A stretch of DNA of 64,000 nucleotides from a virus (taxonomy: Duplodnaviria; Caudoviricetes). A model generated the notes under the pieces. It was not told the DNA's origin and ran no database searches. It worked only from the letters and a program-made list of their open reading frames with translations. The number at the start of each line of letters is the position of its first letter. Positions within the stretch are counted from its first letter, which is position 1. Where the stretch lies: the IMG/VR virus record IMGVR_UViG_3300027286_000002; one strand, given 5' to 3'. A program made the position numbers and the translations under genes. Positions 29,629 to 45,350 of this stretch are shown piece by piece.

Positions 29629-31065
29629 TATATGTTTTATTTACTCATACTTATACATTTTGTCATTTTCATTTCAACATCTTATGCACAGGATGTTCAA
29701 AATTTCTCTTTGGCGAATGATAAATTTAAATACTTTAGTGTAGATCATGCAGATGTCTTAGAAAAAGGCGAACTCAATCTTAACAACTCTTTAAGCTATG
29801 GAAAAAATCCTTTAATCCTAACCAATCCTAAAGAATACCTTGTAGACCAAATCACAACTTACCAAATAGCAGGTGCTTATGGCATCTTGAATAATAAGTT
29901 TCAACTAAACTTTGATTTTGGTTATGGTTTTACTACAGGTAGAAAGCCTGCCTCTTTAGACAGTGGATCAGGTTTTAATAACTTTAAGATTGCATCTAAA
30001 GTGAAAATCTATGATCAAAATAAACTTAAAGTTTCTTTACTTATGCCTATTGCTATTCCTTTAAAAGATAGCAAATCACTTGGATCAAGTTCTTTTCTTA
30101 TTTCATTTAAAGGTATCGCAAGCTATCAAATCACACCTGTCTTAAATGTTTCCCTTAATCTAGGTTATCGCTATCGTTTAAATAAATCTAATGACTACTC
30201 GCTGGATGATGCTATTCTTTATGGTCTAGGCTCTCAATATAAAATACTAGATGATTTTAGTATTAAAGCTGAAGTCTTTGGCAGGTACTTTTTTGTTGAT
30301 AGTATTAATCCTTTAGAGTTTTTACTTGGTGCGAAAAGAAATGAAAAAACATGGTTTGTAGAACTTGCTATTGGTAGAGGCATCACATCTGATTACTCAT
30401 CTGTCAGTTTTAGATTTCTTTTTAACTTTGGTCTTATTTATGGTTTAGATACAGATAAAGATGGTTTGCCTGATTCAGTAGACCAATGTCCAAATCACTC
30501 AGAAGATAAAGATGAACATTTAGATGAAGATGGTTGTCCTGATACAGATAATGATAAAGATGGCATTTTAGATAATGCAGATAAATGTCTAAATGATGCA
30601 GAAGATAAAGATAACTTTGAAGATCAAGATGGCTGTCCTGATTTAGATAATGACAAAGATAATTTAGCTGATGCTTTAGATCAATGTCCTTATTCATCTG
30701 AAATCATAAATGGTATAGAAGATCATGATGGTTGTCCTGATGGTGTAGCAAAGACAATAGAAACTTTAGAAATGAAGAATGAGATTTATTTTGAAAAAGG
30801 TACATCTGTGATTATGCCAATGAGTTATCCATTTGTATATGATTTAGCACAAGTGATAAACAAAAACGAGGCAATTACTGAAATTGTTATAGAATCCACA
30901 AGTGAAAATATTCAAATGTCATTTGATCGTGGTGAAGCAGTAAAGAAAGCATTAAAGAGTTTAAATGTGAAAGCGAATATAGTAGTTAAAGGTGTTCAAG
31001 GTACAGAAGAGAAATTTGAATTTAAAGTAGTATTGGTTTCAAAGGTATTACTTCTTAGTCCCTAG
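29629..31065 (+). CDS. OmpA-family outer-membrane protein with thrombospondin type-3-like repeats
   Basis: Signal peptide, beta-barrel-like alternating pattern, repeated DxDxDGxPDxxDxCP...EDxDxxxDxDGCPD, degenerate OmpA C-domain (IYFEKG). Confidence 0.75.
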   Translation, partial: YMFYLLILIHFVIFISTSYAQDVQNFSLANDKFKYFSVDHADVLEKGELNLNNSLSYGKNPLILTNPKEYLVDQITTYQIAGAYGILNNKFQLNFDFGYGFTTGRKPASLDSGSGFNNFKIASKVKIYDQNKLKVSLLMPIAIPLKDSKSLGSSSFLISFKGIASYQITPVLNVSLNLGYRYRLNKSNDYSLDDAILYGLGSQYKILDDFSIKAEVFGRYFFVDSINPLEFLLGAKRNEKTWFVELAIGRGITSDYSSVSFRFLFNFGLIYGLDTDKDGLPDSVDQCPNHSEDKDEHLDEDGCPDTDNDKDGILDNADKCLNDAEDKDNFEDQDGCPDLDNDKDNLADALDQCPYSSEIINGIEDHDGCPDGVAKTIETLEMKNEIYFEKGTSVIMPMSYPFVYDLAQVINKNEAITEIVIESTSENIQMSFDRGEAVKKALKSLNVKANIVVKGVQGTEEKFEFKVVLVSKVLLLSP

Positions 31066-32343
31066 TGCTTTTTCAATAAATACCATTGGATCAAATTTTA
31101 AAGTTTGCTTTTTATTTAAGACAATATCTTCTAGTTTATCTGCCACTTCACCTGTCGCAAGGAATGACAATAAGACCTGTGGATTGATATAGGAATTGAT
31201 AGTAGTGTTTTTACTTTCATGATTTAATGCTTTCTCTGATTCTTCAAATGCACCTTTAACCATAGATAAAACCTTATCTACAATTTCTTCTCTTGTGCTT
31301 TCTAATTCCAGATCTTCTAGCTTTTGTATTTCATCATATAGCTTATCTTCCCTTTTCTTTAAACTGTCTAGCAAGACTTGAGATGCTTTTAATTTTCTAA
31401 AGTCAGTTAGGTTTAAGATTTGACCAGATGCTTGTCTTAAATACTTGGATAAAACATCATTTGGGATAACAGAACCATCTTCTTTTAAAGTAGTACCACC
31501 AATCTCTTTAAGAACTTTAATAAGATTAGGATCATTAACAACAGCTTTATTGATAGTGCCTTTCTTTCCTCTAAATTTAAGTTCTACTCTATTCCTGCTA
31601 AGAAACTTAATATGTCCTTCTTCTAAAGTAGATGCACCATAGGTTTCCTCTAAATCTTTACTTTCAAGGTTGCCGGGACGGATGCCTGTTTCTAGCATTA
31701 AAGAAATAATGACAGCACATAGCTTTTTATCTTCATCTTTAGATTTAAGATCTTTGGATAATTGTTTTTTCAAATCGTCTATGCAGTTTAATAATTTCTT
31801 TTGTCTGTCCATCTTAGCTTTCATGTCATTGATTTGCTCTGCATAGACAGTTTTCATTTCTTTGATTTTGCCATTTTCACCAACATTAACAACAAGACTT
31901 TTAGGCAGGTATGTTAAGAAAGATTTAGGTATAATCTCTGTAAGTTCTTTTCTTTCCCTTTGTAAAACTTTCTTTTTCATGCCATTAATAACTTTATTCT
32001 TAATGTTATCTTCCCATACATCATCTACATCACTACCTTTAAGAACTTCAACAATACCATTGATTAAACTTTTAGGTGTCATGTTATGTCTATCTAGGAA
32101 TAATTGAATGGCATCAGCTTTATCGTCTTTAAGTGCTTGTTTAATTTCTAGGTAAAATGATTCTTGATCTTGTTTAACTGCATTCCAAAGACCTTTTAAA
32201 GATCCTTTACCTTTGGTTAAACCTGTAGCAGATGAAAGTAATGCTTTAAAATCTTTTTTACCTTCTGTGCATTTTCTACTTTGTCTTCTTTTTTGTTTAA
32301 GAAGTTCTGCATCTTTATCTTCATCAGCATATCTTGAAAACAT
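31048..32343 (-). CDS. Type IB DNA topoisomerase-like protein (paralogue 1)
   Basis: Candidate catalytic pentad: IRPGN, GKKG, DFRK, ALNH, NSYIN. Confidence 0.75.
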   Translation of the reverse strand: MFSRYADEDKDAELLKQKRRQSRKCTEGKKDFKALLSSATGLTKGKGSLKGLWNAVKQDQESFYLEIKQALKDDKADAIQLFLDRHNMTPKSLINGIVEVLKGSDVDDVWEDNIKNKVINGMKKKVLQRERKELTEIIPKSFLTYLPKSLVVNVGENGKIKEMKTVYAEQINDMKAKMDRQKKLLNCIDDLKKQLSKDLKSKDEDKKLCAVIISLMLETGIRPGNLESKDLEETYGASTLEEGHIKFLSRNRVELKFRGKKGTINKAVVNDPNLIKVLKEIGGTTLKEDGSVIPNDVLSKYLRQASGQILNLTDFRKLKASQVLLDSLKKREDKLYDEIQKLEDLELESTREEIVDKVLSMVKGAFEESEKALNHESKNTTINSYINPQVLLSFLATGEVADKLEDIVLNKKQTLKFDPMVFIEKALGTKK

Positions 32344-32355
32344 TTTTATTACCTT

Positions 32356-34083
32356 TTAACCATTAGCAATAGCTTGTTCTAATAAAATTTGTGGATCAAA
32401 TCTTAAAGTAGTTTGACCACTAACAACAATATCATCTAGCTTATCTGCCATTTTACCTGTGGATAAGAAAGAAAGCAAGACTTGAGGATTGATATAAGAA
32501 TTGATGGTAGTGTCTGCACTGCCATATAAATGTTGATGGTTTAAAGCAATACTAGCATCCAAATATGCTTTACTTACAGCATCTAATGTTAAACTAATAA
32601 TTTGATCTTTTACATCCGTGACTTTAGCTTTATGTAATTCTACAATTTTCTTATATATTTCTTTTTGACTAGCTTTAAGACTATCTAAAACTGTTTGACT
32701 AGCTTTAAGTTTTCTAAAGTCAGTAAGTTTAATAGCAAAACCTGCAATGCCTACTAAATATTCTGTGAGTTTTGCTTGTGTAAATAAAGCACCACTATCA
32801 TTTTCAAAAACATATTTATTTTCGCCTGTGCTTTCTATAATCTTTTCAAGAATTTTCACAAGCTGTGGATTGGTAATCTGTGCGATATTTAAAGATCCTT
32901 TTTTCCCAATAAAATTTAATTCAAGACCACCATCTCTTAGTTTTTTAAAATGTTGCTTTAATAATGTAGATGCACCATAGGTTTGAACTTTCTCTAATTC
33001 ATTTCCTTCTTCATCTATTTCATCAGTAGGCACACCCATACCTTCATTGCCCGGGCGAATACCTGTTTCTAACATAATGGATATAATCAATCCCATAATT
33101 TTCTTATTATGGTTTGATCCTGCTATGTCTTTATCTAATGCTGATCTAATTCTACTATATGCAAGTAATAACTTCTTTTGTCTTTCTATCTTTGCTTCCA
33201 TATCATTCATTTTTTCAGCAAACATAGTCTTAATACCTGTGATCTTTTTATTGTTATCTACCTGCACAATCAGTGTATCAGGCAAAAACTTTAAAAAACT
33301 TTCAGGTATTGTTTCTATTAAAGTTTGTCTTTCTGTATCTAGCTTTTGTACTTTATATGATGATTTTAAACCATTTTGAATCCTTGTCCATACATCATCT
33401 AAATTGGTTGAACTCACCATAAAGTAATCTCTAATTGCATAATAAAAAGCTACAGGTGCATCACCAGCAAAATACTTTTCTACAAATAGCTTTACTTGAC
33501 TACTATTTTCACCTGCTAGGTCTTTTATTCTTTTCACAAATAAAACTTTGTTTTTACCTACTGCATTCCATATATCTTCAAATTTACCTGCTTCACCATA
33601 TACATTTCTAAACAAAGATCTAAAATCTTTTTTTCCTTGCTCTAAATGCTTCTCTTGTTGTTTCTTTTCCTGTTCTACTCTTTTTGCTTTATCTTCTCTT
33701 AAAGTATCTTTAATCGGTGGATATGATTCAAGATAGAGTACTTTTAATAAAGTTTCTTTCTCTGCCATCAATTGTTCTATATTGCCACCTGCAAAATACT
33801 TATCTCTTATCATATATGCAAAAGTATTCGTTCTTGAATCCTTGTTATCTTTATTAGTGCCTGTGTATTTACTAATAAATGCTTTAAATGCTTTATTCGT
33901 CAATATCCGTGCTTTATATTCTCTTGCTGTTTCACTTTTTTTAGGTGGCAAACCATCTGCTACTGCTTTCAATTCATCTGTAGCATTACTCTTATATTCT
34001 GTTAAAGATATTGACGATGTACTACCTGTCTTGACAAATGCTAATGCTTTCTTAAGCCAATAATTAAAATCTTTTCTTAACAT
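32356..34083 (-). CDS. Type IB DNA topoisomerase-like protein (paralogue 2, longer N-terminus)
   Basis: IRPGN, FIGKKG, DFRK, ALNH, NSYINP. Confidence 0.75.
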   Translation of the reverse strand: MLRKDFNYWLKKALAFVKTGSTSSISLTEYKSNATDELKAVADGLPPKKSETAREYKARILTNKAFKAFISKYTGTNKDNKDSRTNTFAYMIRDKYFAGGNIEQLMAEKETLLKVLYLESYPPIKDTLREDKAKRVEQEKKQQEKHLEQGKKDFRSLFRNVYGEAGKFEDIWNAVGKNKVLFVKRIKDLAGENSSQVKLFVEKYFAGDAPVAFYYAIRDYFMVSSTNLDDVWTRIQNGLKSSYKVQKLDTERQTLIETIPESFLKFLPDTLIVQVDNNKKITGIKTMFAEKMNDMEAKIERQKKLLLAYSRIRSALDKDIAGSNHNKKIMGLIISIMLETGIRPGNEGMGVPTDEIDEEGNELEKVQTYGASTLLKQHFKKLRDGGLELNFIGKKGSLNIAQITNPQLVKILEKIIESTGENKYVFENDSGALFTQAKLTEYLVGIAGFAIKLTDFRKLKASQTVLDSLKASQKEIYKKIVELHKAKVTDVKDQIISLTLDAVSKAYLDASIALNHQHLYGSADTTINSYINPQVLLSFLSTGKMADKLDDIVVSGQTTLRFDPQILLEQAIANG

Positions 34084-37286: not shown

Positions 37287-38399
37287 ATGAATAAAACTCT
37301 ACTCTTAAAACTCTATCTTGAAAAACCTGCCACTGATATTGCCAAAGAACATAATCTTAAACCTGTTCAAATTCAAAAACTCTTAAGACTTTATAATATA
37401 CCTAAACCTTATCGTAATAAAGATGGCAAAGCACTTGATGTAAATCACATCCTTGATCTCTACCATAACCAAAAGAAATCTATTAAAGAAATCAGCTCTA
37501 TGCTCAACTCTACTTTAGATATGATCACTAATCTCTTATATGACAGAACACCTACACCTAAACCTACCTGCGACCAGCTTAAAGCCTGCTTAAACCTTTC
37601 CAAAAGACAAATTGCTCTCAAATTCAATCTTAAAGAATATGATGTGCATAGACTATTACTTGAATATAAACTTAGCTACAATCCTTTTAACCTGTCTAAA
37701 GAAGAATTACAGAAAGAATACCAATCACAAACCATTTCACAGATAGCTAAAAAATATCATGTAGATGCTATCTATGTTTCTGTTAAACTTAAAGAATATG
37801 GCATCCTTAATGAAATCAATATAGAAGAACTTAAAAGACTTTATTGTGATGAAAGAAAAACCATTAAAGAAATCATTTATTTGTTAAATTCATCTGAAAC
37901 TACTTTGTGGCGACTTATTAAAAAACATAAACTGCAAAGACCTTTCAATCCTAATCCACATGAATTTTTTAAGCTGTGGCATGACAAGACCAAAACAGTA
38001 GATGAGAATATACGATATATGGCAGAATATTATAAAGTGTCTATAGGTATTATTCGCTTGACTGCTAGAAAATTAAATATCAGTAAAAAGACCACACCTA
38101 TCAAAATTAAATATACACAAGAGCAATTACAGGAACTTTATGACAAGCATGACTTATTTGGTTTATCTGTTATTCTTAAAATGAATGTTGCTAATGTAAA
38201 ACGAGCATTAGTAAGACATGGCATCACTATTAAAAAGCCACCTGTTAAACCAATGGATTTAGATCGGATTACACAGCTATATAAGACAAAATATTTAGAT
38301 TTAAAAAACTTGTATGCTATTCAAGAAATTGCAAAAGAACTAGATGTTGCACCTACAACACTTCACAGGTTTATTCGTTCACATAAAATTACAAGATAG
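37287..38399 (+). CDS. Tandem multi-HTH protein
   Basis: About 7 HTH-like repeats; paralogue of 40012-41154. Confidence 0.65.
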   Translation: MNKTLLLKLYLEKPATDIAKEHNLKPVQIQKLLRLYNIPKPYRNKDGKALDVNHILDLYHNQKKSIKEISSMLNSTLDMITNLLYDRTPTPKPTCDQLKACLNLSKRQIALKFNLKEYDVHRLLLEYKLSYNPFNLSKEELQKEYQSQTISQIAKKYHVDAIYVSVKLKEYGILNEINIEELKRLYCDERKTIKEIIYLLNSSETTLWRLIKKHKLQRPFNPNPHEFFKLWHDKTKTVDENIRYMAEYYKVSIGIIRLTARKLNISKKTTPIKIKYTQEQLQELYDKHDLFGLSVILKMNVANVKRALVRHGITIKKPPVKPMDLDRITQLYKTKYLDLKNLYAIQEIAKELDVAPTTLHRFIRSHKITR

Positions 38400-38812: not shown

Positions 38813-39031
38813 ATGTTAGAAATGCTTATTGACTACACAGACCACTTATCATTCATGGTAGATGAAACCTACTTAGATTTTCCCAACCACATGATTGCAT
38901 TTGAAGAAGATCTTTATGGCAATCTTTATCTTATTCAAAAGGATTGGATCTTTAGCAAAACACCTGTAGAATTTGAAGAAGCAGTAGAAATTGTTAAGAA
39001 CTTGCCTGAACCTATTTATTATCTAGATTAG
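38813..39031 (+). CDS. Small acidic hypothetical protein
   Basis: AAAGGA SD. Confidence 0.55.
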   Translation: MLEMLIDYTDHLSFMVDETYLDFPNHMIAFEEDLYGNLYLIQKDWIFSKTPVEFEEAVEIVKNLPEPIYYLD

Positions 39032-39248
39032 GTGCAAGGTAAAGATCACTTGAATTCTGCCACTCTGATTTATGTAAAGATTTAGCTATACTTAAAGATA
39101 GTGAACATCTAAAATATTCAGGATATACATAAAAACCTCTTGTACCACCATCTAATCTACAAGACCTTGAACTTATAGAAGACAAAGCAAATTTAAAAGT
39201 CTTAGAATTTAAAACTTCATCTGATGATATTTCTAACCAATAGATCAT
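39012..39248 (-). CDS. Putative stand-alone MTase target-recognition module C4
   Basis: IYWLEISSDEV...GFYVYPEYFRCSLSLSIAKSLHKSEWQNSSDLYLAP. Confidence 0.6.
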   Translation of the reverse strand: MIYWLEISSDEVLNSKTFKFALSSISSRSCRLDGGTRGFYVYPEYFRCSLSLSIAKSLHKSEWQNSSDLYLAPNLDNK

Positions 39249-39249
39249 T

Positions 39250-39489
39250 TTATATTTCACCACACTTTCCTATATACCTATCTGAATTATTTATCCAAGT
39301 AGGTTTAGACAACACTCTAGCACCAAATAAAGCAATTGCTAGTCTAAAGTTATCTGTGTATAGGTAATGTCCTATTCCTTTTATTGCCAGCTGTTTTGTT
39401 GGTGAGGTGGATGATGTTATATAAACACCTTGTAATGTATGACATACATCATTACTGTCATTGCTAAAGAAACCATAATGACTACTCAT
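39250..39489 (-). CDS. Putative stand-alone MTase target-recognition module C3
   Basis: HYGFF...NDV...GHYLYTDNFRLAIALFGARVLSKPTWINNSDRYIG. Confidence 0.65.
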   Translation of the reverse strand: MSSHYGFFSNDSNDVCHTLQGVYITSSTSPTKQLAIKGIGHYLYTDNFRLAIALFGARVLSKPTWINNSDRYIGKCGEI

Positions 39490-39719
39490 TTATCTTTTCC
39501 TATATACCTATCTTGATCGTTTATCCAATTATGTTTGGATAAAACCCTTGCACTATATAAAGCAATACAATGCCTTATGTTGCTTTGGTGTATATATGTT
39601 CCCATTCCTTTAATATCTCTGATAGTACCTGCTGTTGTAGATGATGCTAGATAAACAAGTTGACCAGAAAACTGTACATTATTTCCATATGATGCAAGGA
39701 AGCCATAGTGATTACTCAT
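39486..39719 (-). CDS. Putative stand-alone MTase target-recognition module C2
   Basis: HYGFL...NNV...GTYIHQSNIRHCIALYSARVLSKHNWINDQDRYIG. Confidence 0.65.
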   Translation of the reverse strand: MSNHYGFLASYGNNVQFSGQLVYLASSTTAGTIRDIKGMGTYIHQSNIRHCIALYSARVLSKHNWINDQDRYIGKDK

Positions 39720-39956
39720 TTATATTTCTTTTCCTATGTAAACATCATTGTTATTTAACCCTGATCTCTTAATAAGAGATCTTGCACCAAACAGTCCTAT
39801 GGACAACCTAAAGTTATCTTTATACATATATGTACCAAAACCTTTAATATCTTTAGTAGTGGCTGGTGAAGTAGATGATGTTAGATACGCCCCAGATGCA
39901 GAATGACATACATCATTACATCCATTGTGAAAAAAACCATAAGGTGTTTTAGTCAT
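39720..39956 (-). CDS. Putative stand-alone MTase target-recognition module C1
   Basis: PYGFF...NDV...GTYMYKDNFRLSIGLFGARSLIKRSGLNNNDVYIG. Confidence 0.65.
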   Translation of the reverse strand: MTKTPYGFFHNGCNDVCHSASGAYLTSSTSPATTKDIKGFGTYMYKDNFRLSIGLFGARSLIKRSGLNNNDVYIGKEI

Positions 39957-40011
39957 GTTAATTCCTTTTCAATATCTTATAAGATTTCTACAAGAAAGGA
40001 CTGCAAAAAAA

Positions 40012-41154
40012 ATGACAAAAGAATTATTAAATGATCTTATCCAAACCATGTCACATACTGAAATGGCATCTCATCTTAATATCTCGCTTAACCATTTAAG
40101 AAGACTATTAAGAGTTCACAATATCAAAAAACCTTTAAAAGATAAAGCAGGCAATCCTATTAATCTTAAATATGTTGAAACCTTGTATGATGCAGGACAT
40201 CCTGTTTCTAAAATCCATATTATGGTTAATGCTTCTTTTGATGCCATCTCTAACTACCTCAACCTAAATAAAATTCGTATTAGTAAAAAACTACTACAAC
40301 ACTACTTTATTGATGAAAAACTTTCCCTTACACAAATAGCTGATCGTTTTGGATCATCTCTTTCTACTATTAAAAAATACCTACTACTCTATGAAATCAT
40401 AAAACCTGATATTCATATTGAGAAACACGATTTAGAATCACATCCTAATATACTTGTTTCCGAACTAGCTATTCTCTTTAACACAGATAAAGAAACGATT
40501 AGCTACTTTCTTAAAAAATATGACTTGTCTAAAAAAGGCAAAGTCAATCAAGAAAAACTACAACAGCTTTATTGTGTTGAACATAAATCACTACAAGAGA
40601 TTGCAGACCATTTTAAAATCTCACATATAACTCTTTGGCGAAGGATTAGACAATATAAACTCACTAGAGAATTTAATCCTGATATAGACCTCTTTGAGCA
40701 AAAACTCTCTGAATATAGAGACCTACCTATGCACAAGGCTAAACAAAACCTTGCGAAATATTATAATGTTTCTGTTGGTGAAATTGAAATCTTTTTTAAA
40801 AAGCACAATCTACTTAAAAAAAGAAAAAGAAGAAAGGTTACCTACACAAATGACCAGCTAAGAAAGATGTATGAAAGACTTGGGATTAAAGGTCTTATGA
40901 AGAAACTAGATATGACTGAATATAATGTTAAAAGAGCATTAAAGAGAAATGGTATCTTGCCATATAGCAAACCAAATAAAAGACTTGTCTTATCTATTCC
41001 TAAAGACCATATCAAATATCTCTACCATAAGAAATATGAACATTATAATGCACCTAGTGCAAGACAAGCAATGGCAGATGAATTAGGTTTATCTTTATAT
41101 GCAGTTACAAGGTATATTCAAATGTATAATCTAAACAGACCAAGAATTTTCTAA
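40012..41154 (+). CDS. Tandem multi-HTH protein
   Basis: About 7 HTH-like repeats; paralogue of 37287-38399; start after AAAGGA. Confidence 0.65.
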   Translation: MTKELLNDLIQTMSHTEMASHLNISLNHLRRLLRVHNIKKPLKDKAGNPINLKYVETLYDAGHPVSKIHIMVNASFDAISNYLNLNKIRISKKLLQHYFIDEKLSLTQIADRFGSSLSTIKKYLLLYEIIKPDIHIEKHDLESHPNILVSELAILFNTDKETISYFLKKYDLSKKGKVNQEKLQQLYCVEHKSLQEIADHFKISHITLWRRIRQYKLTREFNPDIDLFEQKLSEYRDLPMHKAKQNLAKYYNVSVGEIEIFFKKHNLLKKRKRRKVTYTNDQLRKMYERLGIKGLMKKLDMTEYNVKRALKRNGILPYSKPNKRLVLSIPKDHIKYLYHKKYEHYNAPSARQAMADELGLSLYAVTRYIQMYNLNRPRIF

Positions 41155-41167
41155 AAGGACACTTCTT

Positions 41168-41440
41168 ATGAAACCATTAAATCAAAATGTGATTATCAAA
41201 CCATCACCTGTAGAACCACAATCCCAATCAGGTTTATTTATTCCAGATACTGCTAAACAAGACCAATCTATTGCTACTGTGATTGCAATAGGCACAGGTT
41301 ATCCAAATGGCAAACCTTTAACAGTAAAGGTTGGCGATAAGGTAGTTTATTCCAAGTATGCAGGTGTAGAACTTAATTATGAAGATCAAGAGTATTTGGT
41401 CTTATCTGAATCGGATCTTTTGGCTGTGATTAAAAATTAA
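41168..41440 (+). CDS. groES: Co-chaperonin GroES
   Basis: MKPLNQNVII...SGLFIPDTAK...VIAIGTG...VKVGDKVVYSKYAGVE...YLVLSESDLLAVI. Confidence 0.93.
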   Translation: MKPLNQNVIIKPSPVEPQSQSGLFIPDTAKQDQSIATVIAIGTGYPNGKPLTVKVGDKVVYSKYAGVELNYEDQEYLVLSESDLLAVIKN

Positions 41441-41494
41441 TATTTTATTTATATGCAAGTCTTTATAAAACAACTTTGAAAAGGTAAAGATAAA

Positions 41495-41758
41495 ATGAGA
41501 AGATTTGCAAATACAGAATCATCAGAAATGCAAGCTAAAGTAATCCAAAAAATTCTTGAAAACCAAATTGCAGATAACTTTTATATAAATGATGAAATGA
41601 AAAAAAAAGTTAAACAGCTTTTAGCAACTATGGATATGGAAGCTATCGATGAAGATCTTATGGATGATATTGATTATGCTTTTGATGCTTATGCTAAAGC
41701 CATGCAGAATTTCTTTTATTATGCAGAGAAATTAGAAGATCTTATTAAACTTGTTTAA
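41495..41758 (+). CDS. Small acidic hypothetical protein
   Basis: AAAGG SD. Confidence 0.55.
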   Translation: MRRFANTESSEMQAKVIQKILENQIADNFYINDEMKKKVKQLLATMDMEAIDEDLMDDIDYAFDAYAKAMQNFFYYAEKLEDLIKLV

Positions 41759-41937
41759 AAAACCATTTTAGAAAAGAATGGTTTAAACCAAGTTAGCATT
41801 ATTGTACTTCCTATTCCACAACCTAATGCAGTTCCTATAAAGCACAGACAAAAAGTTAAGATTGCTTTATTTCTTATCTTATTATCACTCGCATCTACAT
41901 ATCCTGTTCTCTTTAAGAAAAACTCTAACTCATTCAT
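41755..41937 (-). CDS. Small membrane protein ending module block B
   Basis: ATGA-coupled to module B4; one TM segment. Confidence 0.5.
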   Translation of the reverse strand: MNELEFFLKRTGYVDASDNKIRNKAILTFCLCFIGTALGCGIGSTIMLTWFKPFFSKMVF

Positions 41938-42158
41938 TTATCTTCCTTACATGGTGCTAAATACCTATTAGGATTTAATATCCAATTTCCTCGTCCAATA
42001 ACTTCTCTATTTCTTGCAGTGGACAAGGCTACAAACACTCTAAAATTAATAGGAAAGATTTCAATACCTGATTTACTTGATGCTATGCTAGATAAGGTAA
42101 AAACACTATGCTCGTTTCTAGTAACTTCATTACTACTTGTTTCAAACCAACAGATCAT
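41934..42158 (-). CDS. Putative stand-alone MTase target-recognition module B4
   Basis: ICWFETSSNEV...GIEIFPINFRVFVALSTAR...GNWILNPNRYLAP. Confidence 0.65.
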   Translation of the reverse strand: MICWFETSSNEVTRNEHSVFTLSSIASSKSGIEIFPINFRVFVALSTARNREVIGRGNWILNPNRYLAPCKEDK

Positions 42159-42364
42159 TTTTCTTCATCCTTATTAGGTGCTAGATACACATTTTCATAT
42201 TTTATCCAATCATCTTGTATAATTCTTTTTGCCACAAATAAAGATATTCTTTTCTTATCATATCCATTTAAAAAAGCACTATGTCCTATTTTAGGTATGC
42301 TACTTAATACAGTAGTGCCTTGTGCATACAAATGCACAATATTACTATCAAATACAAAATACAC
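42155..42364 (-). CDS. Putative stand-alone MTase target-recognition module B3
   Basis: YFVFDSNIV...RISLFVAKRIIQDDWIKYENVYLAP (GTG start). Confidence 0.65.
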   Translation of the reverse strand: MYFVFDSNIVHLYAQGTTVLSSIPKIGHSAFLNGYDKKRISLFVAKRIIQDDWIKYENVYLAPNKDEEK

Positions 42365-42366
42365 TT

Positions 42367-42582
42367 TTAGTTATCCTTATTAGGTTTTAAAAACCTGTCT
42401 TGATCATTTATCCTAGTATGTTTAGGTAAAATTCGAGCATTAAATAATCCTACACTTTCTCTAAAATTACTGTCCTGTACATATAAGCCTCCACTATGAG
42501 AATAAAATTTACAGGATTGCAAATAAACAAGTTGCTGTCCTTGCCATACATTATTTGAATCACTTATGAAATAAAATCTCAT
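42367..42582 (-). CDS. Putative stand-alone MTase target-recognition module B2
   Basis: FYFISDSNNV...GLYVQDSNFRESVGLFNARILPKHTRINDQDRFLKP. Confidence 0.65.
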   Translation of the reverse strand: MRFYFISDSNNVWQGQQLVYLQSCKFYSHSGGLYVQDSNFRESVGLFNARILPKHTRINDQDRFLKPNKDN

Positions 42583-42583
42583 A

Positions 42584-42796
42584 TCATTTCTTTCTTAAAG
42601 CTAGATAAACATCATCTCTATTTATAAAGCTGGCTGTACTCACTAACCTTCTACTCATATATAAACAGACAGATCTTCTTATATTAAAAGGCTCTACATA
42701 TAGACCATGATTTACAGATGATACACCACTTAATAAAAATACATCCTGTATGTTTTTTCCTATGTTGTTATTATTGTTCTCAAACCAATAAACCAT
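42584..42796 (-). CDS. Putative stand-alone MTase target-recognition module B1
   Basis: VYWFENNNNNI...HGLYVEPFNIRRSVCLYMSRRLV...FINRDDVYLA. Confidence 0.65.
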   Translation of the reverse strand: MVYWFENNNNNIGKNIQDVFLLSGVSSVNHGLYVEPFNIRRSVCLYMSRRLVSTASFINRDDVYLALRKK

Positions 42797-42862
42797 AAGC
42801 TATCTTCCTTATATATAGAAATCGTGATTTTTTACCTATATTGTAAAAACATAGGTAAAAAC

Positions 42863-43102
42863 TTATATTGTTTTACCTATATAGACATCGTTACTGTTTA
42901 TCCAATTTGATTTTATTAATGATCTAACACTATATAAAGTAATACATCTTCTCATATTATTCTTATACATATATAAACCATTTCCCTGTACCTCTCCCCT
43001 ATTCATATGACCCGGGGATGTGAAAGATGTCATATAAGCACCTTGAGTAGCTCCTGTAATGTTATTTTCTTTAGATGTGAAAAAACCATAGTGATTACTC
43101 AT
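42863..43102 (-). CDS. Putative stand-alone MTase target-recognition module A4
   Basis: HYGFF...NNI...GLYMYKNNMRRCITLYSVRSLIKSNWINSNDVYIG. Confidence 0.65.
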   Translation of the reverse strand: MSNHYGFFTSKENNITGATQGAYMTSFTSPGHMNRGEVQGNGLYMYKNNMRRCITLYSVRSLIKSNWINSNDVYIGKTI

Positions 43103-43340
43103 TTATCTTATCCTCTCTTCCCATGTACCTATCTTGGTCGTTTATCCATGTGTGTTTTGATAACACCCTTGCACCATATAAAGCAATGACTTGCCGTATG
43201 TTACTTTGGTGTATATATGTTCCAAATCCTTTTAAGTGATGTTTTCCACCATCGGATGTTGAGGACATTAAATAAGCACCTTGAACAGACCACTGTACAT
43301 TATTACCTTCACTGATAAAGAAACCATAGTGATTACTCAT
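43095..43340 (-). CDS. Putative stand-alone MTase target-recognition module A3
   Basis: HYGFF...NNV...GTYIHQSNIRQVIALYGARVLSKHTWINDQDRYMG. Confidence 0.65.
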   Translation of the reverse strand: MSNHYGFFISEGNNVQWSVQGAYLMSSTSDGGKHHLKGFGTYIHQSNIRQVIALYGARVLSKHTWINDQDRYMGREDKINE

Positions 43341-43573
43341 CTTATCTTATCCTTACCTATATAGGCATCATTACTGTTTATCCATTGTGATTTTATAAGT
43401 GTCTTTACTACAAATAAACTCACTGTCTGTCTTATATTATTTTTCTCTACATAATAACCAGCTTGCCCCATTAAACCTATACCACATCTAGGATAAGACC
43501 TTGTACTTAATAAATAACAATCCTGCATACCATGCTGTATGTCATTCCCATTACTATTAAAATAACAAATCAT
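43337..43573 (-). CDS. Putative stand-alone MTase target-recognition module A2
   Basis: CYFNSNGNDI...GYYVEKNNIRQTVSLFVVKTLIKSQWINSNDAYIG. Confidence 0.65.
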   Translation of the reverse strand: MICYFNSNGNDIQHGMQDCYLLSTRSYPRCGIGLMGQAGYYVEKNNIRQTVSLFVVKTLIKSQWINSNDAYIGKDKIR

Positions 43574-43575
43574 TC

Positions 43576-43791
43576 TTATCTCTTTGGTGCTAAATAAACA
43601 TCATCATGCTTTTCCCATGATGATTTAATAACTGATCTACATACAAATAAAGATATTCTTTTTCTGTCATATCCTCTTAAATATGCACAGTGTCCTATCT
43701 TTGGCTCACCACTAAAAAGTAAAACCCAAGAAGTATTCGTCCTCACTATATTACTATCAAATACAAAATACATTCTATTACTTCGGATCAT
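43576..43791 (-). CDS. Putative stand-alone MTase target-recognition module A1
   Basis: ATGA overlap with the MTase stop; YFVFDSNIV...RISLFVCRSVIKSSWEKHDDVYLAP. Confidence 0.65.
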   Translation of the reverse strand: MIRSNRMYFVFDSNIVRTNTSWVLLFSGEPKIGHCAYLRGYDRKRISLFVCRSVIKSSWEKHDDVYLAPKR

Positions 43792-45350
43792 TCTTTTAAA
43801 AATCCATATTCATATACACCCGGTCTTAACTTATCACCTAAAACCTTATGCAATTCTTTTAACTTCTTAAAATCTGCATTATACTCTTTTTCCCAAAATC
43901 CCTTTAACTGATACCACCCACAATCCCAACATAATAACTGCAACTCAGGATTCGCTTTAGCATATGCCTCTCTTGTTGCCAATGACTTTAACCATAATTC
44001 TGTAGCATGAACTAATAATGCCACTGCCTCTTCACTTAATGTCAATTCTGCTATTAATGTAGACACATAAGATTCTTCATAATACTTCTCATAATCTGCT
44101 AACATCAATGCACTATGCTCTTCTATTGCACCACGAATGCCATATCTCTCTAACCAAAAGAAATGATTCTTAATTTGCCAAATCTCACCACCCCATGATA
44201 CATCTCTCATAGATGTACAATTATTCTTCGTTTCAAAAATAGAATAAATATGTCCATCATCCACCCACTGCTCATAGCCTGTCTTTACTTCACTTGATGT
44301 ATGCTTATATTTATTCCCTTCGTCTAACCACCTCTGTGTAAATGGTATCGATGGATATGCAATATATTCAATTTCTTTTTCAGGTGCTTTTTTAATTGGA
44401 CCCGTCTTTTCCCTTTCCTTGATTTTAAGACCACTTGTCATAATTGGATATTCATAGGTTTCCATATCTTTAATAGGTTCTCTAACCCACTCACTAGCTG
44501 GCATATGGTTATCGCAATTATAAATCTGTTTCCATCCATAATGACTTGCATCAAGATTTTTAATTTCTAACTTTGGATCTGTCTTAGTTTTCCCTTCACT
44601 CCAAATCGTAAAGCCTACTCCCCATTCAGATGAAACACCTGCAAATGCACTCGCATTAAAGAAAAATCCTGCTTTAAATTCAAAGGCATTGTAATACCAT
44701 TCTCTAAATTTCTTTGCTGTTTCCTGAATCATAAACTTGATTGGTGAAAAGAAACATAAACTGACTTTCTTATATCCAAAATACTTTGCCTGTCTTGCAC
44801 ATTCAAAAATAAATTGAAAATATAAATTAGAACGACAAGCACCTAAATGCAACATCTTTTCTTTAACAAGTGTATTACTCACACCTTCTTTATTTTCTTC
44901 ATCATCTGCAAGTGTACCTGCCGCCGCATATGGTGGATTAATAAAGAACACAAGTCTTTTACCTGCCTTTGCTCCTGCATATAACTGATCTTGCACTGCA
45001 TCTGGAATAACATTGCTTTCATCACCTAAGCTAAACAAACATCCATCTGTATCTGTTGGATTTAAGAAATCATACTTAAAAGCATTTTTAAATCCTTGCT
45101 TATGTAGTAAATCCACTTCAGGTTGCTCTAATGTAGATAAGATTAAATTCTTAAAATCATATTCTCTAATCAAATTGCCTGAGCCTGAACAACAATCCCA
45201 TACAAGACTTTCTTCTTTCCAAGTTTCACCTAAGACATTACTTGTTAAGGTATGTGCTTGATCCACCCATAAAGCTGGTGTAAAAAATGCACCTTGTCTT
45301 GTTCGGATTTCATTCTCTAAGGTTTCATCATATCTGTGATGTTCACTCAT
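43788..45350 (-). CDS. Gamma-class N6-adenine DNA methyltransferase (Type IIG-related, no nuclease domain) with an apparent internal deletion of the target-recognition segment
   Basis: GAFFTP (motif X), VWDCCSGSGNL (motif I), FINPPY (motif IV), long helical C-terminus ending YEYGFLKE. Confidence 0.85.
   Translation of the reverse strand: MSEHHRYDETLENEIRTRQGAFFTPALWVDQAHTLTSNVLGETWKEESLVWDCCSGSGNLIREYDFKNLILSTLEQPEVDLLHKQGFKNAFKYDFLNPTDTDGCLFSLGDESNVIPDAVQDQLYAGAKAGKRLVFFINPPYAAAGTLADDEENKEGVSNTLVKEKMLHLGACRSNLYFQFIFECARQAKYFGYKKVSLCFFSPIKFMIQETAKKFREWYYNAFEFKAGFFFNASAFAGVSSEWGVGFTIWSEGKTKTDPKLEIKNLDASHYGWKQIYNCDNHMPASEWVREPIKDMETYEYPIMTSGLKIKEREKTGPIKKAPEKEIEYIAYPSIPFTQRWLDEGNKYKHTSSEVKTGYEQWVDDGHIYSIFETKNNCTSMRDVSWGGEIWQIKNHFFWLERYGIRGAIEEHSALMLADYEKYYEESYVSTLIAELTLSEEAVALLVHATELWLKSLATREAYAKANPELQLLCWDCGWYQLKGFWEKEYNADFKKLKELHKVLGDKLRPGVYEYGFLKE

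What the first reader, a model, noticed from the sequence alone, without database searches (positions are those of the whole stretch)
39012..45350. Split DNA methyltransferase with an array of 12 free-standing, interchangeable target-recognition modules
Seen: a 520-aa N6-adenine MTase (GAFFTP, WDCCSGSG, NPPY; no nuclease domain) is followed on the same strand by 12 paralogous 69-83 aa ORFs. Each has its own start, and most are coupled by overlapping or adjacent start/stop codons and carry SD-like sequences. They share a scaffold (Y/W/F)xF...(N/S)N(V/I)...(V/A)Y(L)xS...G(L/T)Y...N(F/I)R...(A/S)L(F/Y)xxR...WIN.xD.Y(L/I)(A/G) with highly variable loops. Knowledge: in gamma-class/Type IIG MTases the target-recognition region lies C-terminal to the catalytic domain. 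As I recall full-length members of this family, a segment with this scaffold (...GYF...NN...SS...G......NF....LF.AR..I...WINDKDEYLAP) lies between the ...P.M.S.L.(V/I)K and Y.Q(F/W)VND..(V/I)YSLF motifs. In the 520-aa protein those flanks are present (PIMTSGLKIK ... YEQWVDDGHIYSIF, about 44250-44440), but the intervening segment is a short linker that keeps only possible remnants (EYIAY and WLDEGNKY vs WINDQDRY). It is about 45-50 aa shorter than the modules. Inference: the catalytic scaffold is completed in trans by any of 12 specificity subunits, so one enzyme methylates up to 12 different sequences and protects the phage from many host restriction systems. This is unlike multispecific Bacillus phage MTases (TRDs in one polypeptide), two-chain MTases such as M.AquI (one partner) or Type I HsdS switching. 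Alternative: the modules act as decoys or inhibitors of host Type IIG enzymes.
Basis: partly seen in the sequence, partly recalled or inferred. Interest (0 to 1): 0.95.

Follow-up and report, generated by a model that had tools for sequence, protein, structure and literature searches.

The report
Phage methyltransferase with detachable recognition modules
A huge phage encodes an adenine DNA methyltransferase that has lost the core of its DNA-reading domain, followed by 12 small genes that each encode just that missing piece, so one enzyme probably takes interchangeable recognition subunits and marks many different DNA sequences against host restriction.

Summary
On the minus strand, a 520-aa gamma-class N6-adenine methyltransferase (43788-45350) is followed by 12 paralogous 69-83-aa genes. 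Eight are contiguous. Four more lie beyond a 1.8-kb opposite-strand insert.

Every small protein aligns to one internal ~70-aa segment of full-length homologues. The 520-aa protein and its 12 closest relatives lack exactly that segment and keep a conserved linker in its place.

Among about 168 fetched loci, free-standing modules occur only beside these module-less enzymes, 4 to 14 per locus. All other homologues carry the module in cis, some in 2-5 tandem copies and one as a circular permutant.

The modules are under purifying selection (dN/dS 0.12-0.29), but the repertoire is shuffled and replaced between related phages. A complex prediction docks a module into the scaffold (score 0.84, best control 0.00).

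A model of a homologue has the M.TaqI/CamA/M.BseCI architecture, and the module lies in the target-recognition domain.

Trans-completion is well supported. A different DNA specificity per module is inferred, not shown. No library names the family, and five literature searches found no description. I rate it a new variant of known kinds (multispecific phage methyltransferases, separate specificity subunits), of high interest.

The parts
43788..45350 (-). 520-aa gamma-class N6-adenine DNA methyltransferase scaffold. It has the catalytic domain and the fixed C-terminal part of the recognition domain, but no N-terminal nuclease-like domain and no module core.
   Evidence: Fold of homologue P0083.
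44928..44939 (-). NPPY catalytic motif IV (residues 138-141).
   Evidence: Read from the sequence. Invariant N138, P139, P140 in A3.
44277..44417 (-). Conserved linker (residues ~312-358) that replaces the module core. It keeps remnants EIEYIAY and FTQRWLDEGNKY.
43576..43791 (-). Module 1 (71 aa). Its start overlaps the MTase stop (ATGA).
43337..43573 (-). Module 2 (78 aa).
43095..43340 (-). Module 3 (81 aa).
42863..43102 (-). Module 4 (79 aa).
42584..42796 (-). Module 5 (70 aa).
42367..42582 (-). Module 6 (71 aa).
42155..42364 (-). Module 7 (69 aa, GTG start).
41934..42158 (-). Module 8 (74 aa).
41755..41937 (-). 60-aa hydrophobic ORF coupled to module 8 by a 4-nt overlap. It is not a module and its role is unknown.
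39955..41758 (+). Opposite-strand insert that splits the array: multi-HTH protein (39955-41154), Cpn10/GroES homologue (41168-41440), and an 87-aa ORF (41495-41758).
39720..39956 (-). Module 9 (78 aa).
39486..39719 (-). Module 10 (77 aa). This one was used for the complex and for the module-only model.
39250..39489 (-). Module 11 (79 aa).
39012..39263 (-). Module 12 (83 aa from the GTG start). By alignment with the other modules, the internal ATG at 39248 may be the real start.

Best explanation
The 520-aa protein is the constant scaffold of a gamma-class N6-adenine DNA methyltransferase. It holds the catalytic domain and the fixed helical and beta part of a TaqI/CamA-type target-recognition domain (TRD). 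A conserved deletion has removed the ~45-residue core of a beta-alpha-beta-beta-alpha sub-domain of that TRD.

The 12 downstream genes are co-transcribed and translationally coupled. Each encodes a complete copy of that sub-domain. One module at a time docks non-covalently into the vacant slot. Docking uses the module's conserved C-terminal helix and WINxxDxY tail, and completes the TRD.

The variable N-terminal half of the module (short helix plus a loop of variable length) stays exposed and reads the DNA. The cell therefore holds a mixture of holoenzymes with up to 12 specificities. The phage genome is methylated at many motifs and escapes many restriction systems.

Shown here:
- the nested homology;
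- the exclusive genomic linkage;
- purifying selection on the modules, with turnover of the repertoire;
- predicted docking.

Inferred:
- that the exposed face contacts DNA;
- that specificities differ between modules;
- that the enzyme needs a module;
- the anti-restriction role.
For: 1. Nested homology. All 12 modules align by BLASTP (E 4e-7 to 3e-14, 35-44% identity) to one internal position of 560-870-aa homologues. The module profile finds the same.

2. Conserved deletion. The window protein and P0001-P0012 (67-91% identity) share a deletion of exactly this segment, with a conserved linker in its place.

3. Exclusive linkage. Module-less enzymes are followed by 14, 9, 8, at least 7 and 4 free modules in L001, L085, L005, L086 and L004. 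None of 79 other viral loci or 80 bacterial loci has a free module within 6-10 kb.

4. The small ORFs are real genes. dN/dS is 0.12-0.29 for orthologous module pairs, against 0.13 for the MTase. SD-like sites are present.

5. Repertoire turnover. Against L001 (MTase 91% identical), six of 12 modules have 73-84% orthologues, in a different order. Against L005 (MTase 82%), no module reaches more than 50%.

6. Relatives multiply the module in cis. There are 2-5 tandem copies per protein, and their N-halves are 36-44% identical while their C-halves are 62-100% identical. P0121 is a circular permutant with five modules behind one scaffold.

7. Fold. The AF2 model of P0083 (pLDDT 91.3) aligns over its whole length with CamA (Z 16.9, rmsd 5.5, 373 aligned) and M.BseCI (Z 16.7, rmsd 5.7, 367 aligned). 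It aligns with M.TaqI over model residues 26-415 (Z 16.8, rmsd 4.6, 312 aligned). The module (residues ~325-398) falls in the part that matches their TRDs.

8. Complex prediction. The score is 0.84 (runs 0.89, 0.00, 0.84) and the best of 3 controls is 0.00. The mark was reached by 58 of 80 solved complexes and 2 of 110 mismatched pairs; these counts hold only roughly because my own alignments were used. The runs agree in at least 0% of contacts, and the partner's pLDDT is at least 54. The interface joins conserved scaffold residues (W288, W362, V512, F517, L518) to the module's conserved helix.

9. Variable exposed face. Exposed module positions are more variable than buried ones (mean entropy 2.72 against 2.31, p=0.04).

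10. Methyltransferase islands. In relatives the gene sits next to three C5 MTase genes (L085) or two Dam-like genes plus one C5 gene (L086).
Against: - There is no experiment, and no DNA was modelled.
- The module alone has no fold match in the PDB, so its variable face could not be placed on a DNA complex.
- The entropy contrast between exposed and buried positions is weak (p=0.04). Among free-standing modules the N-half is not significantly more variable than the C-half (p=0.11).
- One of three complex runs found no interface. The pass is the kind expected for pieces of a split domain: it shows likeness to the cis arrangement, not binding in a cell.
- The scaffold keeps a conserved copy of the module tail (FTQRWLDEGNKY), and its place in a holoenzyme is unexplained.
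- In CamA, base contacts come from many TRD loops (PMC8187626). A module may therefore change only part of the recognition sequence.
- The window protein itself matches no Pfam, NCBIfam or PADLOC methyltransferase model.
Confidence: 0.6

Rival explanations
1. The modules do dock and complete or activate the methyltransferase, but sequence specificity is set by the constant parts. On this view module diversity serves another purpose, for example escape from host proteins that sense or inhibit the enzyme, or different stability or timing.
For: Docking is supported by nested homology, linkage and the complex prediction. Nothing here shows DNA contact by the module. In CamA, many base contacts come from TRD loops outside the first TRD segment (PMC8187626). 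The variability contrast is weak.
Against: The N-half of the module is the longest variable stretch of the whole family (P0083 residues 317-365). It is the part that diverges between tandem cis copies while the C-half stays 62-100% identical. The module supplies three of the five strands of the beta cluster in the part of the model that matches the TaqI/CamA TRD. Multiplying a purely structural piece 12 to 14 times has no evident benefit.
Confidence: 0.15
2. The small proteins are decoys or inhibitors aimed at host enzymes of the same family, which are probably single-chain nuclease-methyltransferase enzymes. The phage methyltransferase works alone, perhaps with relaxed specificity because its TRD core is missing.
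For: Long homologues carry an N-terminal domain with a nearly invariant D-x12-E-x-K (97-98 of 98) and a weak HSDR_N lead (score 0.88-0.89). They are widespread in bacterial genomes as solitary genes. A free module could in principle compete with a resident one.
Against: Those enzymes already hold the module in cis, so they have no open slot. The only proteins with an open slot are the phage's own. The slot-bearing enzyme and the arrays co-occur without exception in the loci seen. The genes are translationally coupled to the methyltransferase. The linker of the module-less clade is conserved rather than decaying.
Confidence: 0.1
3. The small ORFs are silent cassettes that recombine into the methyltransferase gene to switch its recognition domain, as in hsdS shufflons.
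For: DNA repeats with a period of ~230-244 nt are best conserved at module ends and could support recombination. Module order differs between relatives.
Against: None of 13 clade members has a module in the would-be expression site. Each cassette has its own start codon, and 9 of 12 have an SD-like site. dN/dS of 0.12-0.29 indicates translated proteins. No recombinase or inverted-repeat system was seen in the locus.
Confidence: 0.03

Closest known systems
M.TaqI / M.BseCI / CamA (gamma-class N6-adenine DNA methyltransferases with a C-terminal target-recognition domain)
   Same: The motif order is the same (GxFxTP, DxxxGxG, NPPY). The model of homologue P0083 aligns with them over its whole length: CamA Z 16.9 (rmsd 5.5, 373 aligned), M.BseCI Z 16.7 (rmsd 5.7, 367 aligned), M.TaqI Z 16.8 (rmsd 4.6, 312 aligned). 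All have a nine-stranded catalytic domain followed by a TRD made of a beta cluster and helices.
   Different: There is no sequence match to any solved chain, and the window protein has no Pfam hit. In those enzymes the TRD is one piece of one chain. Here its core sub-domain is deleted from the enzyme and encoded 12 times separately.
Multispecific cytosine-5 methyltransferases of Bacillus phages (SPR, phi3T, rho11s) (from my own knowledge)
   Same: In both, one catalytic core on a phage serves several alternative recognition modules, presumably to evade several restriction systems. Relatives of the window enzyme with 2-5 tandem modules in one chain (P0121, P0122, P0123, P0127, P0022) are a direct adenine-methyltransferase counterpart.
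   Different: Those are C5 enzymes with unrelated TRDs, all inside one polypeptide. Here the class is N6-adenine gamma and, in the window clade, the modules are separate ~75-aa proteins.
Separate specificity subunits: Type I HsdS (including phase-variable multi-hsdS loci) and the S subunits of Type IIB enzymes such as BcgI and BsaXI (from my own knowledge; BsaXI and HsdM appear among the fold matches)
   Same: A gamma-class adenine methyltransferase takes its DNA specificity from a separate polypeptide. Several alternative specificity genes can serve one enzyme.
   Different: HsdS-type subunits are ~400 aa, with two TRDs and a coiled-coil, and form the Pfam Methylase_S family. The modules here are ~75 aa, matched no Pfam family in the ten scanned, and complete a TRD that remains mostly on the enzyme. 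Multi-hsdS loci express one variant at a time through recombination. Here all 12 have their own translation signals.
Single-chain Type IIG/IIL restriction-modification enzymes (MmeI, BpuSI, DrdV)
   Same: DrdV gives the best fold score for the catalytic part (Z 18.4, rmsd 4.1, 265 aligned). The ~830-aa homologues have an N-terminal domain with a near-invariant D-x12-E-x-K and occur as solitary genes, as these enzymes do.
   Different: The window protein lacks that N-terminal domain. The TRD part of the model matches the TaqI/CamA/BseCI chains over its full length rather than the MmeI-type TRD. Nuclease activity of the long forms is untested.
Two-chain methyltransferases such as M.AquI and M.EcoHK31I (from my own knowledge)
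   Same: The active enzyme is assembled from separately encoded pieces of one fold. The family studied here also has natural two-gene splits (L064, L075-L079, L081-L084).
   Different: Those have one fixed partner. Here there are 4 to 14 alternative partners per genome.

Membership tests
Gamma-class N6-adenine DNA methyltransferases (Pfam N6_Mtase / Eco57I; M.TaqI-like) | AdoMet-binding motif I (D/E-x-x-x-G-x-G), preceded by motif X (G-x-F-x-T-P). | tested here: met
   GAFFTP at residues 20-25 and VWDCCSGSG at residues 50-58. G20, F22, T24, P25, D52 and G56 are at least 90% conserved in A3.
Gamma-class N6-adenine DNA methyltransferases (Pfam N6_Mtase / Eco57I; M.TaqI-like) | Catalytic motif IV (N/D)PP(Y/F), located after motif I. 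| tested here: met
   NPPY at residues 138-141. N, P and P are invariant in 26 and in 111 homologues.
Gamma-class N6-adenine DNA methyltransferases (Pfam N6_Mtase / Eco57I; M.TaqI-like) | A match to the family's sequence profile above its curated cut-off. | tested here: not met
   The window protein has no Pfam hit at E<=1 and only an E=0.16 NCBIfam hit. Homologue P0121 does pass N6_Mtase (33.5 bits, cut-off 20.4) and Eco57I (28.1 bits, cut-off 25.3). Membership by profile therefore holds only through a relative.
Gamma-class N6-adenine DNA methyltransferases (Pfam N6_Mtase / Eco57I; M.TaqI-like) | Class-I Rossmann-like methyltransferase fold with a C-terminal target-recognition domain. | tested here: met
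   This was tested on homologue P0083 (38% identical in alignment A3; 36% by BLASTP), not on the window protein. The model has pLDDT 91.3. Foldseek gives E 1.5e-7 to M.TaqI. VIA gives Z 16-18 to DrdV, CamA, M.TaqI and M.BseCI.
Gamma-class N6-adenine DNA methyltransferases (Pfam N6_Mtase / Eco57I; M.TaqI-like) | Transfers a methyl group to N6 of adenine in a specific DNA sequence. | not testable with these tools
   This needs expression and methylome reading.
Multispecific phage methyltransferases (SPR / phi3T type) | Cytosine-5 methyltransferase core (Pfam DNA_methylase). | tested here: not met
   There is no PF00145 hit. The motifs and fold are those of adenine gamma-class enzymes.
Multispecific phage methyltransferases (SPR / phi3T type) | Several TRDs in tandem within one polypeptide. 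| tested here: not met
   The window enzyme has no module in cis. Relatives P0121-P0123, P0127 and P0022 do have tandem cis modules.
Type I HsdS / Type IIB S specificity subunits (Pfam Methylase_S) | Two TRDs separated by conserved coiled-coil regions, with a match to PF01420. | tested here: not met
   Nine modules were scanned against Pfam at E<=1 and none hit PF01420. The modules are 69-83 aa with one beta-alpha-beta-beta-alpha unit.
Type IIG/IIL single-chain restriction-modification enzymes | An N-terminal PD-(D/E)xK nuclease domain fused to the methyltransferase and TRD. | tested here: not met
   The window protein starts 7 residues before the region aligned with the methyltransferase part of the long forms. 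The long forms have D-x12-E-x-K; that they are nucleases is a lead only.

The most novel reading that the evidence does not exclude
This would be a combinatorial DNA methyltransferase. One catalytic scaffold has an empty slot in its recognition domain. A genome-encoded library of 4 to 14 micro-subunits of ~75 aa fits that slot, and each reprograms the enzyme to a different DNA sequence. All are expressed together, so a huge phage writes a dozen methylation motifs with one enzyme. The library is shuffled and replaced between related phages as hosts change their restriction enzymes.
Probability: 0.55. Interest if true: 0.9.

Novelty: new variant of a known kind. Interest (0 to 1): 0.85.

Why it matters
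If each module sets a specificity, this would be the smallest known portable DNA-recognition unit for a methyltransferase, and it comes as a natural plug-in system.

- It would explain how huge phages can cover many host restriction specificities at the cost of ~230 bp per specificity instead of a whole gene.
- It would give a direct sequence-to-motif training set: hundreds of natural modules on one constant scaffold.
- It would offer a simple chassis for programmable adenine methylation.

It also brings to light a large family that no source names. There are 330 hits in one search, more than 560 matches in bacterial genomes, and every source name seen was 'hypothetical protein'. Its long members look like single-chain restriction-modification enzymes.

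Tried and rejected
**Searches that found nothing**
- Pfam, PHROGs, NCBIfam and PADLOC scans of the MTase, and Pfam and PHROGs scans of nine modules, gave nothing meaningful.
- A sequence search of the MTase against PDB chains (E<=10) found nothing.
- tblastn of the MTase against 50,697 phage records found nothing.
- A word-indexed search for longer proteins with the 12-module alignment found nothing. The tool itself calls this weak evidence.
- No whole genome is held for this window, so more copies outside it could not be looked for.
- Five literature searches found no description of such an arrangement. The library lacks most subscription journals.

**Module-only model**
- I made it to map the module onto DNA-bound TaqI/CamA. 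It folded with confidence (pLDDT 85.7).
- It has no match in the PDB. The best VIA score is Z 3.3 against an unrelated chain, and the best Foldseek E-value is 4.9. The mapping therefore failed.

**Other checks**
- The promoter/terminator scan of the operon was uninformative: 26 promoter-like sites against 44.7 in shuffles, and 3 terminator-like sites against 2.5.
- Two viral homologues looked module-less by HMM (L068, L070). On inspection both have divergent cis modules.
- About a dozen bacterial long forms also scored 'no module' at E<=0.01. Their full lengths suggest a divergent module rather than a deletion, but I did not inspect them.
- No window module has a cis counterpart above 45% identity in the sampled proteins, so I dropped the idea of recent capture of host modules for lack of evidence.

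**Readings rejected**
- Gene-call artefact or decaying duplicates: dN/dS 0.12-0.29 argues against this.
- Read-through fusion to the MTase: the MTase ORF already contains the part that lies downstream of the module.

Full report
**What is there**

The window is part of a huge phage. It has about 31% G+C, two Mtd_N tail-fibre genes, a clamp loader and two topoisomerase IB genes, and a 2131-aa ORF with weak matches only to large phages. Near-identical copies of the methyltransferase lie on contigs of up to 350 kb.

On the minus strand, a 520-aa ORF (43788-45350) carries GAFFTP, WDCCSGSG and NPPY. Twelve ORFs of 69-83 aa follow it. They form one family, 21-55% identical to the first, with a shared scaffold.

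Eight modules are contiguous. They are followed by a coupled 60-aa hydrophobic ORF, then a 1.8-kb insert on the other strand (a multi-HTH protein, a Cpn10 homologue and an 87-aa ORF), then four more modules.

Neighbouring genes overlap by 4-14 nt or lie 0-2 nt apart, with one 66-nt gap. Nine of 12 modules have an SD-like site. The figures for comparison are 17 of 25 large ORFs and 7.7% of random positions (p=1.7e-8).

**Nested homology**

No curated library recognises the large or the small proteins. A search of 5.8 billion proteins found 330 relatives of the 520-aa protein. Twelve are close (67-91% identity, 510-557 aa). Many others are about 37% identical and 800-870 aa or 560-610 aa long.

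Pairwise alignments with P0057 and P0083 show full colinearity except for one gap at residues ~312-345 of the window protein. At that gap the relatives carry a segment of the type LG-F-N--NN------V-L-S---------G-----N-RR--ALY-ARKLV---W-NDKDEYL-P, which is the scaffold of the small ORFs.

In a 26-sequence alignment, the window protein and all 12 close relatives share this deletion. They have a well-conserved linker in its place (TGPIKKAP-K-I-Y--HP-IPFTQKWLD--G-Y).

A profile of the 12 small proteins was searched against 1.84 billion representatives and found 400 matches. Most are free-standing proteins of 65-85 aa. The rest are single internal matches in 560-870-aa relatives, for example residues 595-662 of 828, or several tandem matches in one protein. 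Each of the 12 window modules aligns on its own to that internal position (E 4e-7 to 3e-14).

**What the family is**

An AlphaFold2 model of the 568-aa relative P0083, built on 111 sequences, has mean pLDDT 91.3. Foldseek and VIA-align place it among gamma-class adenine DNA methyltransferases:

| Structure | Z | rmsd | Aligned residues | Model range vs chain range |
|---|---|---|---|---|
| DrdV | 18.4 | 4.1 | 265 | 1-339 vs 149-786 |
| CamA | 16.9 | 5.5 | 373 | 9-564 vs 10-575 |
| M.TaqI | 16.8 | 4.6 | 312 | 26-415 vs 20-411 |
| M.BseCI | 16.7 | 5.7 | 367 | 17-564 vs 9-572 |

BrxX, MmeI and HsdM rank lower.

CamA is described as a catalytic domain (residues 1-320) plus a target-recognition domain (320-577). 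That domain is a beta cluster flanked by helices, and many of its loops contact bases (PMC8187626).

In the model the module is residues ~325-398: strand, short helix, two strands, long helix, then a loop. It supplies three of the five strands that follow the catalytic domain. It therefore lies inside the recognition domain.

One relative (P0121) passes the Pfam N6_Mtase and Eco57I cut-offs. The window protein itself passes none, so its membership rests on motifs, on homology and on the fold of a relative.

The long relatives have about 250 extra N-terminal residues with a nearly invariant D-x12-E-x-K and a weak HSDR_N lead. In bacterial genomes they are solitary genes among housekeeping genes, sometimes two or three in tandem. 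They may be single-chain restriction-modification enzymes. This is a lead, not a finding.

**Comparative genomics**

I built HMMs of the module and of the enzyme and ran them on the six-frame ORFs of all fetched loci.

- Every member of the module-less clade with enough flanking DNA is followed by free-standing modules: 12 in the window, 14 in L001, 9 in L085, 8 in L005, at least 7 in L086 and 4 in L004.
- None of 79 other viral loci or 80 bacterial loci has a free-standing module within 6-10 kb. In those loci the module is in cis.
- Two apparent exceptions have divergent cis modules.
- About a dozen bacterial long forms were not detected by the module HMM. Their full lengths point to a divergent module, but I did not inspect them.
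- About ten viral loci are natural two-gene splits, with the catalytic half in one gene and the module plus C-terminal part in the next.
- In L085 and L086 the gene lies in an island of other DNA methyltransferase genes.

**Evolution**

Orthologous module pairs between the window and L001 or L004 have dN/dS of 0.12-0.29, and the methyltransferase has 0.13. The small ORFs therefore encode proteins under purifying selection.

The repertoire is nonetheless unstable. Against L001 (enzyme 91% identical), six of the 12 window modules have 73-84% orthologues, in a different order. The others have none above 63%. Against L005 (enzyme 82% identical), no window module finds a match above 50%.

In relatives with 2-5 tandem modules in one chain, the N-terminal halves of the copies are 36-44% identical and the C-terminal halves 62-100% identical. 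P0127 is an exception.

P0121 lies between the terminase genes of a phage and is a circular permutant. Its order is the fixed C-terminal part, the catalytic domain, then five linker-plus-module units. Five modules there share one scaffold without being inserted in it.

Across 111 full-length relatives, the N-half of the module is the longest variable stretch of the protein.

**Docking**

I ran one complex prediction of the scaffold with module 10, each given as an alignment.

- Score and controls: the score was 0.84 (runs 0.89, 0.00, 0.84) and the best of three controls was 0.00.
- Calibration: the mark was reached by 58 of 80 solved complexes and 2 of 110 mismatched pairs. These counts hold only roughly because my own alignments were used.
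- Run agreement: the runs agree in at least 0% of contacts, and the partner's pLDDT is at least 54.
- Interface: in the best run, 205 contacts were confident. They join the module's conserved helix and tail to scaffold residues 282-305, 359-381 and 505-519. These include family-invariant W288, V512, F517 and L518, and near-invariant W362.
- Exposed residues: module residues 9, 11, 14, 17, 18, 20, 21, 32-35 and 39 are left exposed, and these are among its most variable positions.

This is the completion of a split domain. Such a pass is expected if the homology is real, and it shows likeness to the cis arrangement. It does not show binding in a cell.

**Mechanism and its limits**

The best reading is a constant scaffold with an empty slot in its recognition domain, plus a co-expressed library of plug-in modules. 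The conserved half of each module docks, and the variable half reads DNA. This would give up to 12 specificities and broad protection from restriction.

Trans-completion is the well-supported part; I put it at about 0.8. Distinct specificities per module, the need for a module, and the anti-restriction purpose are inferences; I put the whole chain at about 0.6.

Two points remain open:
- The scaffold keeps a conserved copy of the module tail, and its place in the holoenzyme is unknown.
- The module alone matches no solved fold, so I could not place its variable face on a DNA complex.

**Rivals**

- The modules complete the enzyme but do not set specificity (0.15).
- The modules are decoys for host enzymes of the same family (0.10). 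Against this, only the phage enzyme has an open slot, and the linkage has no exception in the loci seen.
- The modules are silent recombination cassettes (0.03). Against this are their own translation signals, the dN/dS values, and the absence of a filled expression site in 13 relatives.

**Comparison and novelty**

The arrangement works like the multispecific C5 methyltransferases of Bacillus phages and like enzymes with separate specificity subunits (Type I HsdS, Type IIB S). It is a member of neither group: the class is adenine gamma, the module is a ~75-aa sub-domain with no Methylase_S match, and all the modules are expressed side by side.

I found no name for the family in any source and no paper describing the arrangement. 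I rate it a new variant of known kinds, of high interest, with a simple decisive experiment.

Noticed in passing
window 37287-38399 (+) and 39955-41154 (+); L001 13777-14913 and 16632-17750: Paralogous ~370-400-aa proteins made of repeated helix-turn-helix units (HTH_23, HTH_7, a faint NUMOD1 hit) lie on the opposite strand. They flank or interrupt the module array in the window and also in the related phage L001. They could be mobile or regulatory genes tied to array rearrangement.
   Followed up: partly
window 41168-41440 (+): A Cpn10/GroES co-chaperonin homologue (Pfam E 5.7e-26) sits in the gap that splits the module array.
   Followed up: partly
window 41755-41937 (-): A 60-aa hydrophobic ORF overlaps the stop of module 8 by 4 nt and has an SD-like site. 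It is not a module and matches no family.
   Followed up: partly
P0057 and 97 other long homologues (alignment A2), residues ~38-53 of P0057: The ~250-aa N-terminal extension of the long relatives has a nearly invariant D-x12-E-x-K (97-98 of 98), plus a weak language-model lead to HSDR_N. The parent family may be an unnamed group of single-chain restriction-modification enzymes.
   Followed up: partly
L170 698-3712 (protein P0121): This is a circularly permuted relative. Its order is the fixed C-terminal part, the catalytic domain, then five linker-plus-module repeats. It is encoded between the small and large terminase genes of a phage.
   Followed up: yes
L064, L075-L079, L081-L084: These are natural two-gene forms of the family. 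A ~505-aa gene encodes the N-terminal and catalytic part, and a ~305-335-aa gene encodes the module plus the C-terminal part. In L081-L084 the two ORFs overlap in what they cover, which I did not resolve.
   Followed up: partly
L124 228-7620 and L152 2477-10178: Bacterial metagenome-assembled genomes carry three full-length paralogues in tandem, each with one cis module. This is whole-gene duplication where the phage clade duplicates only the module.
   Followed up: no
L085 1-9913 and L086 449-3323: In two related phages the module-less enzyme lies in an island of other DNA methyltransferase genes: three C5 genes in L085, and two Dam-like genes plus one C5 gene in L086. L004 has an N6_N4_Mtase gene inside its array.
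   Followed up: partly
window 31048-32343 (-) and 32356-34083 (-): Two adjacent paralogous genes have the eukaryotic-type topoisomerase IB catalytic core (Pfam E 5.8e-20 and 1.4e-11). This is unusual for a phage. L001 has one too.
   Followed up: no
window 44310-44348 (-), residues ~335-347 of the MTase: The scaffold keeps a conserved remnant of the module tail (FTQRWLDEGNKY), although every free module brings its own tail. The confident interface of the predicted complex does not include this stretch.
   Followed up: partly
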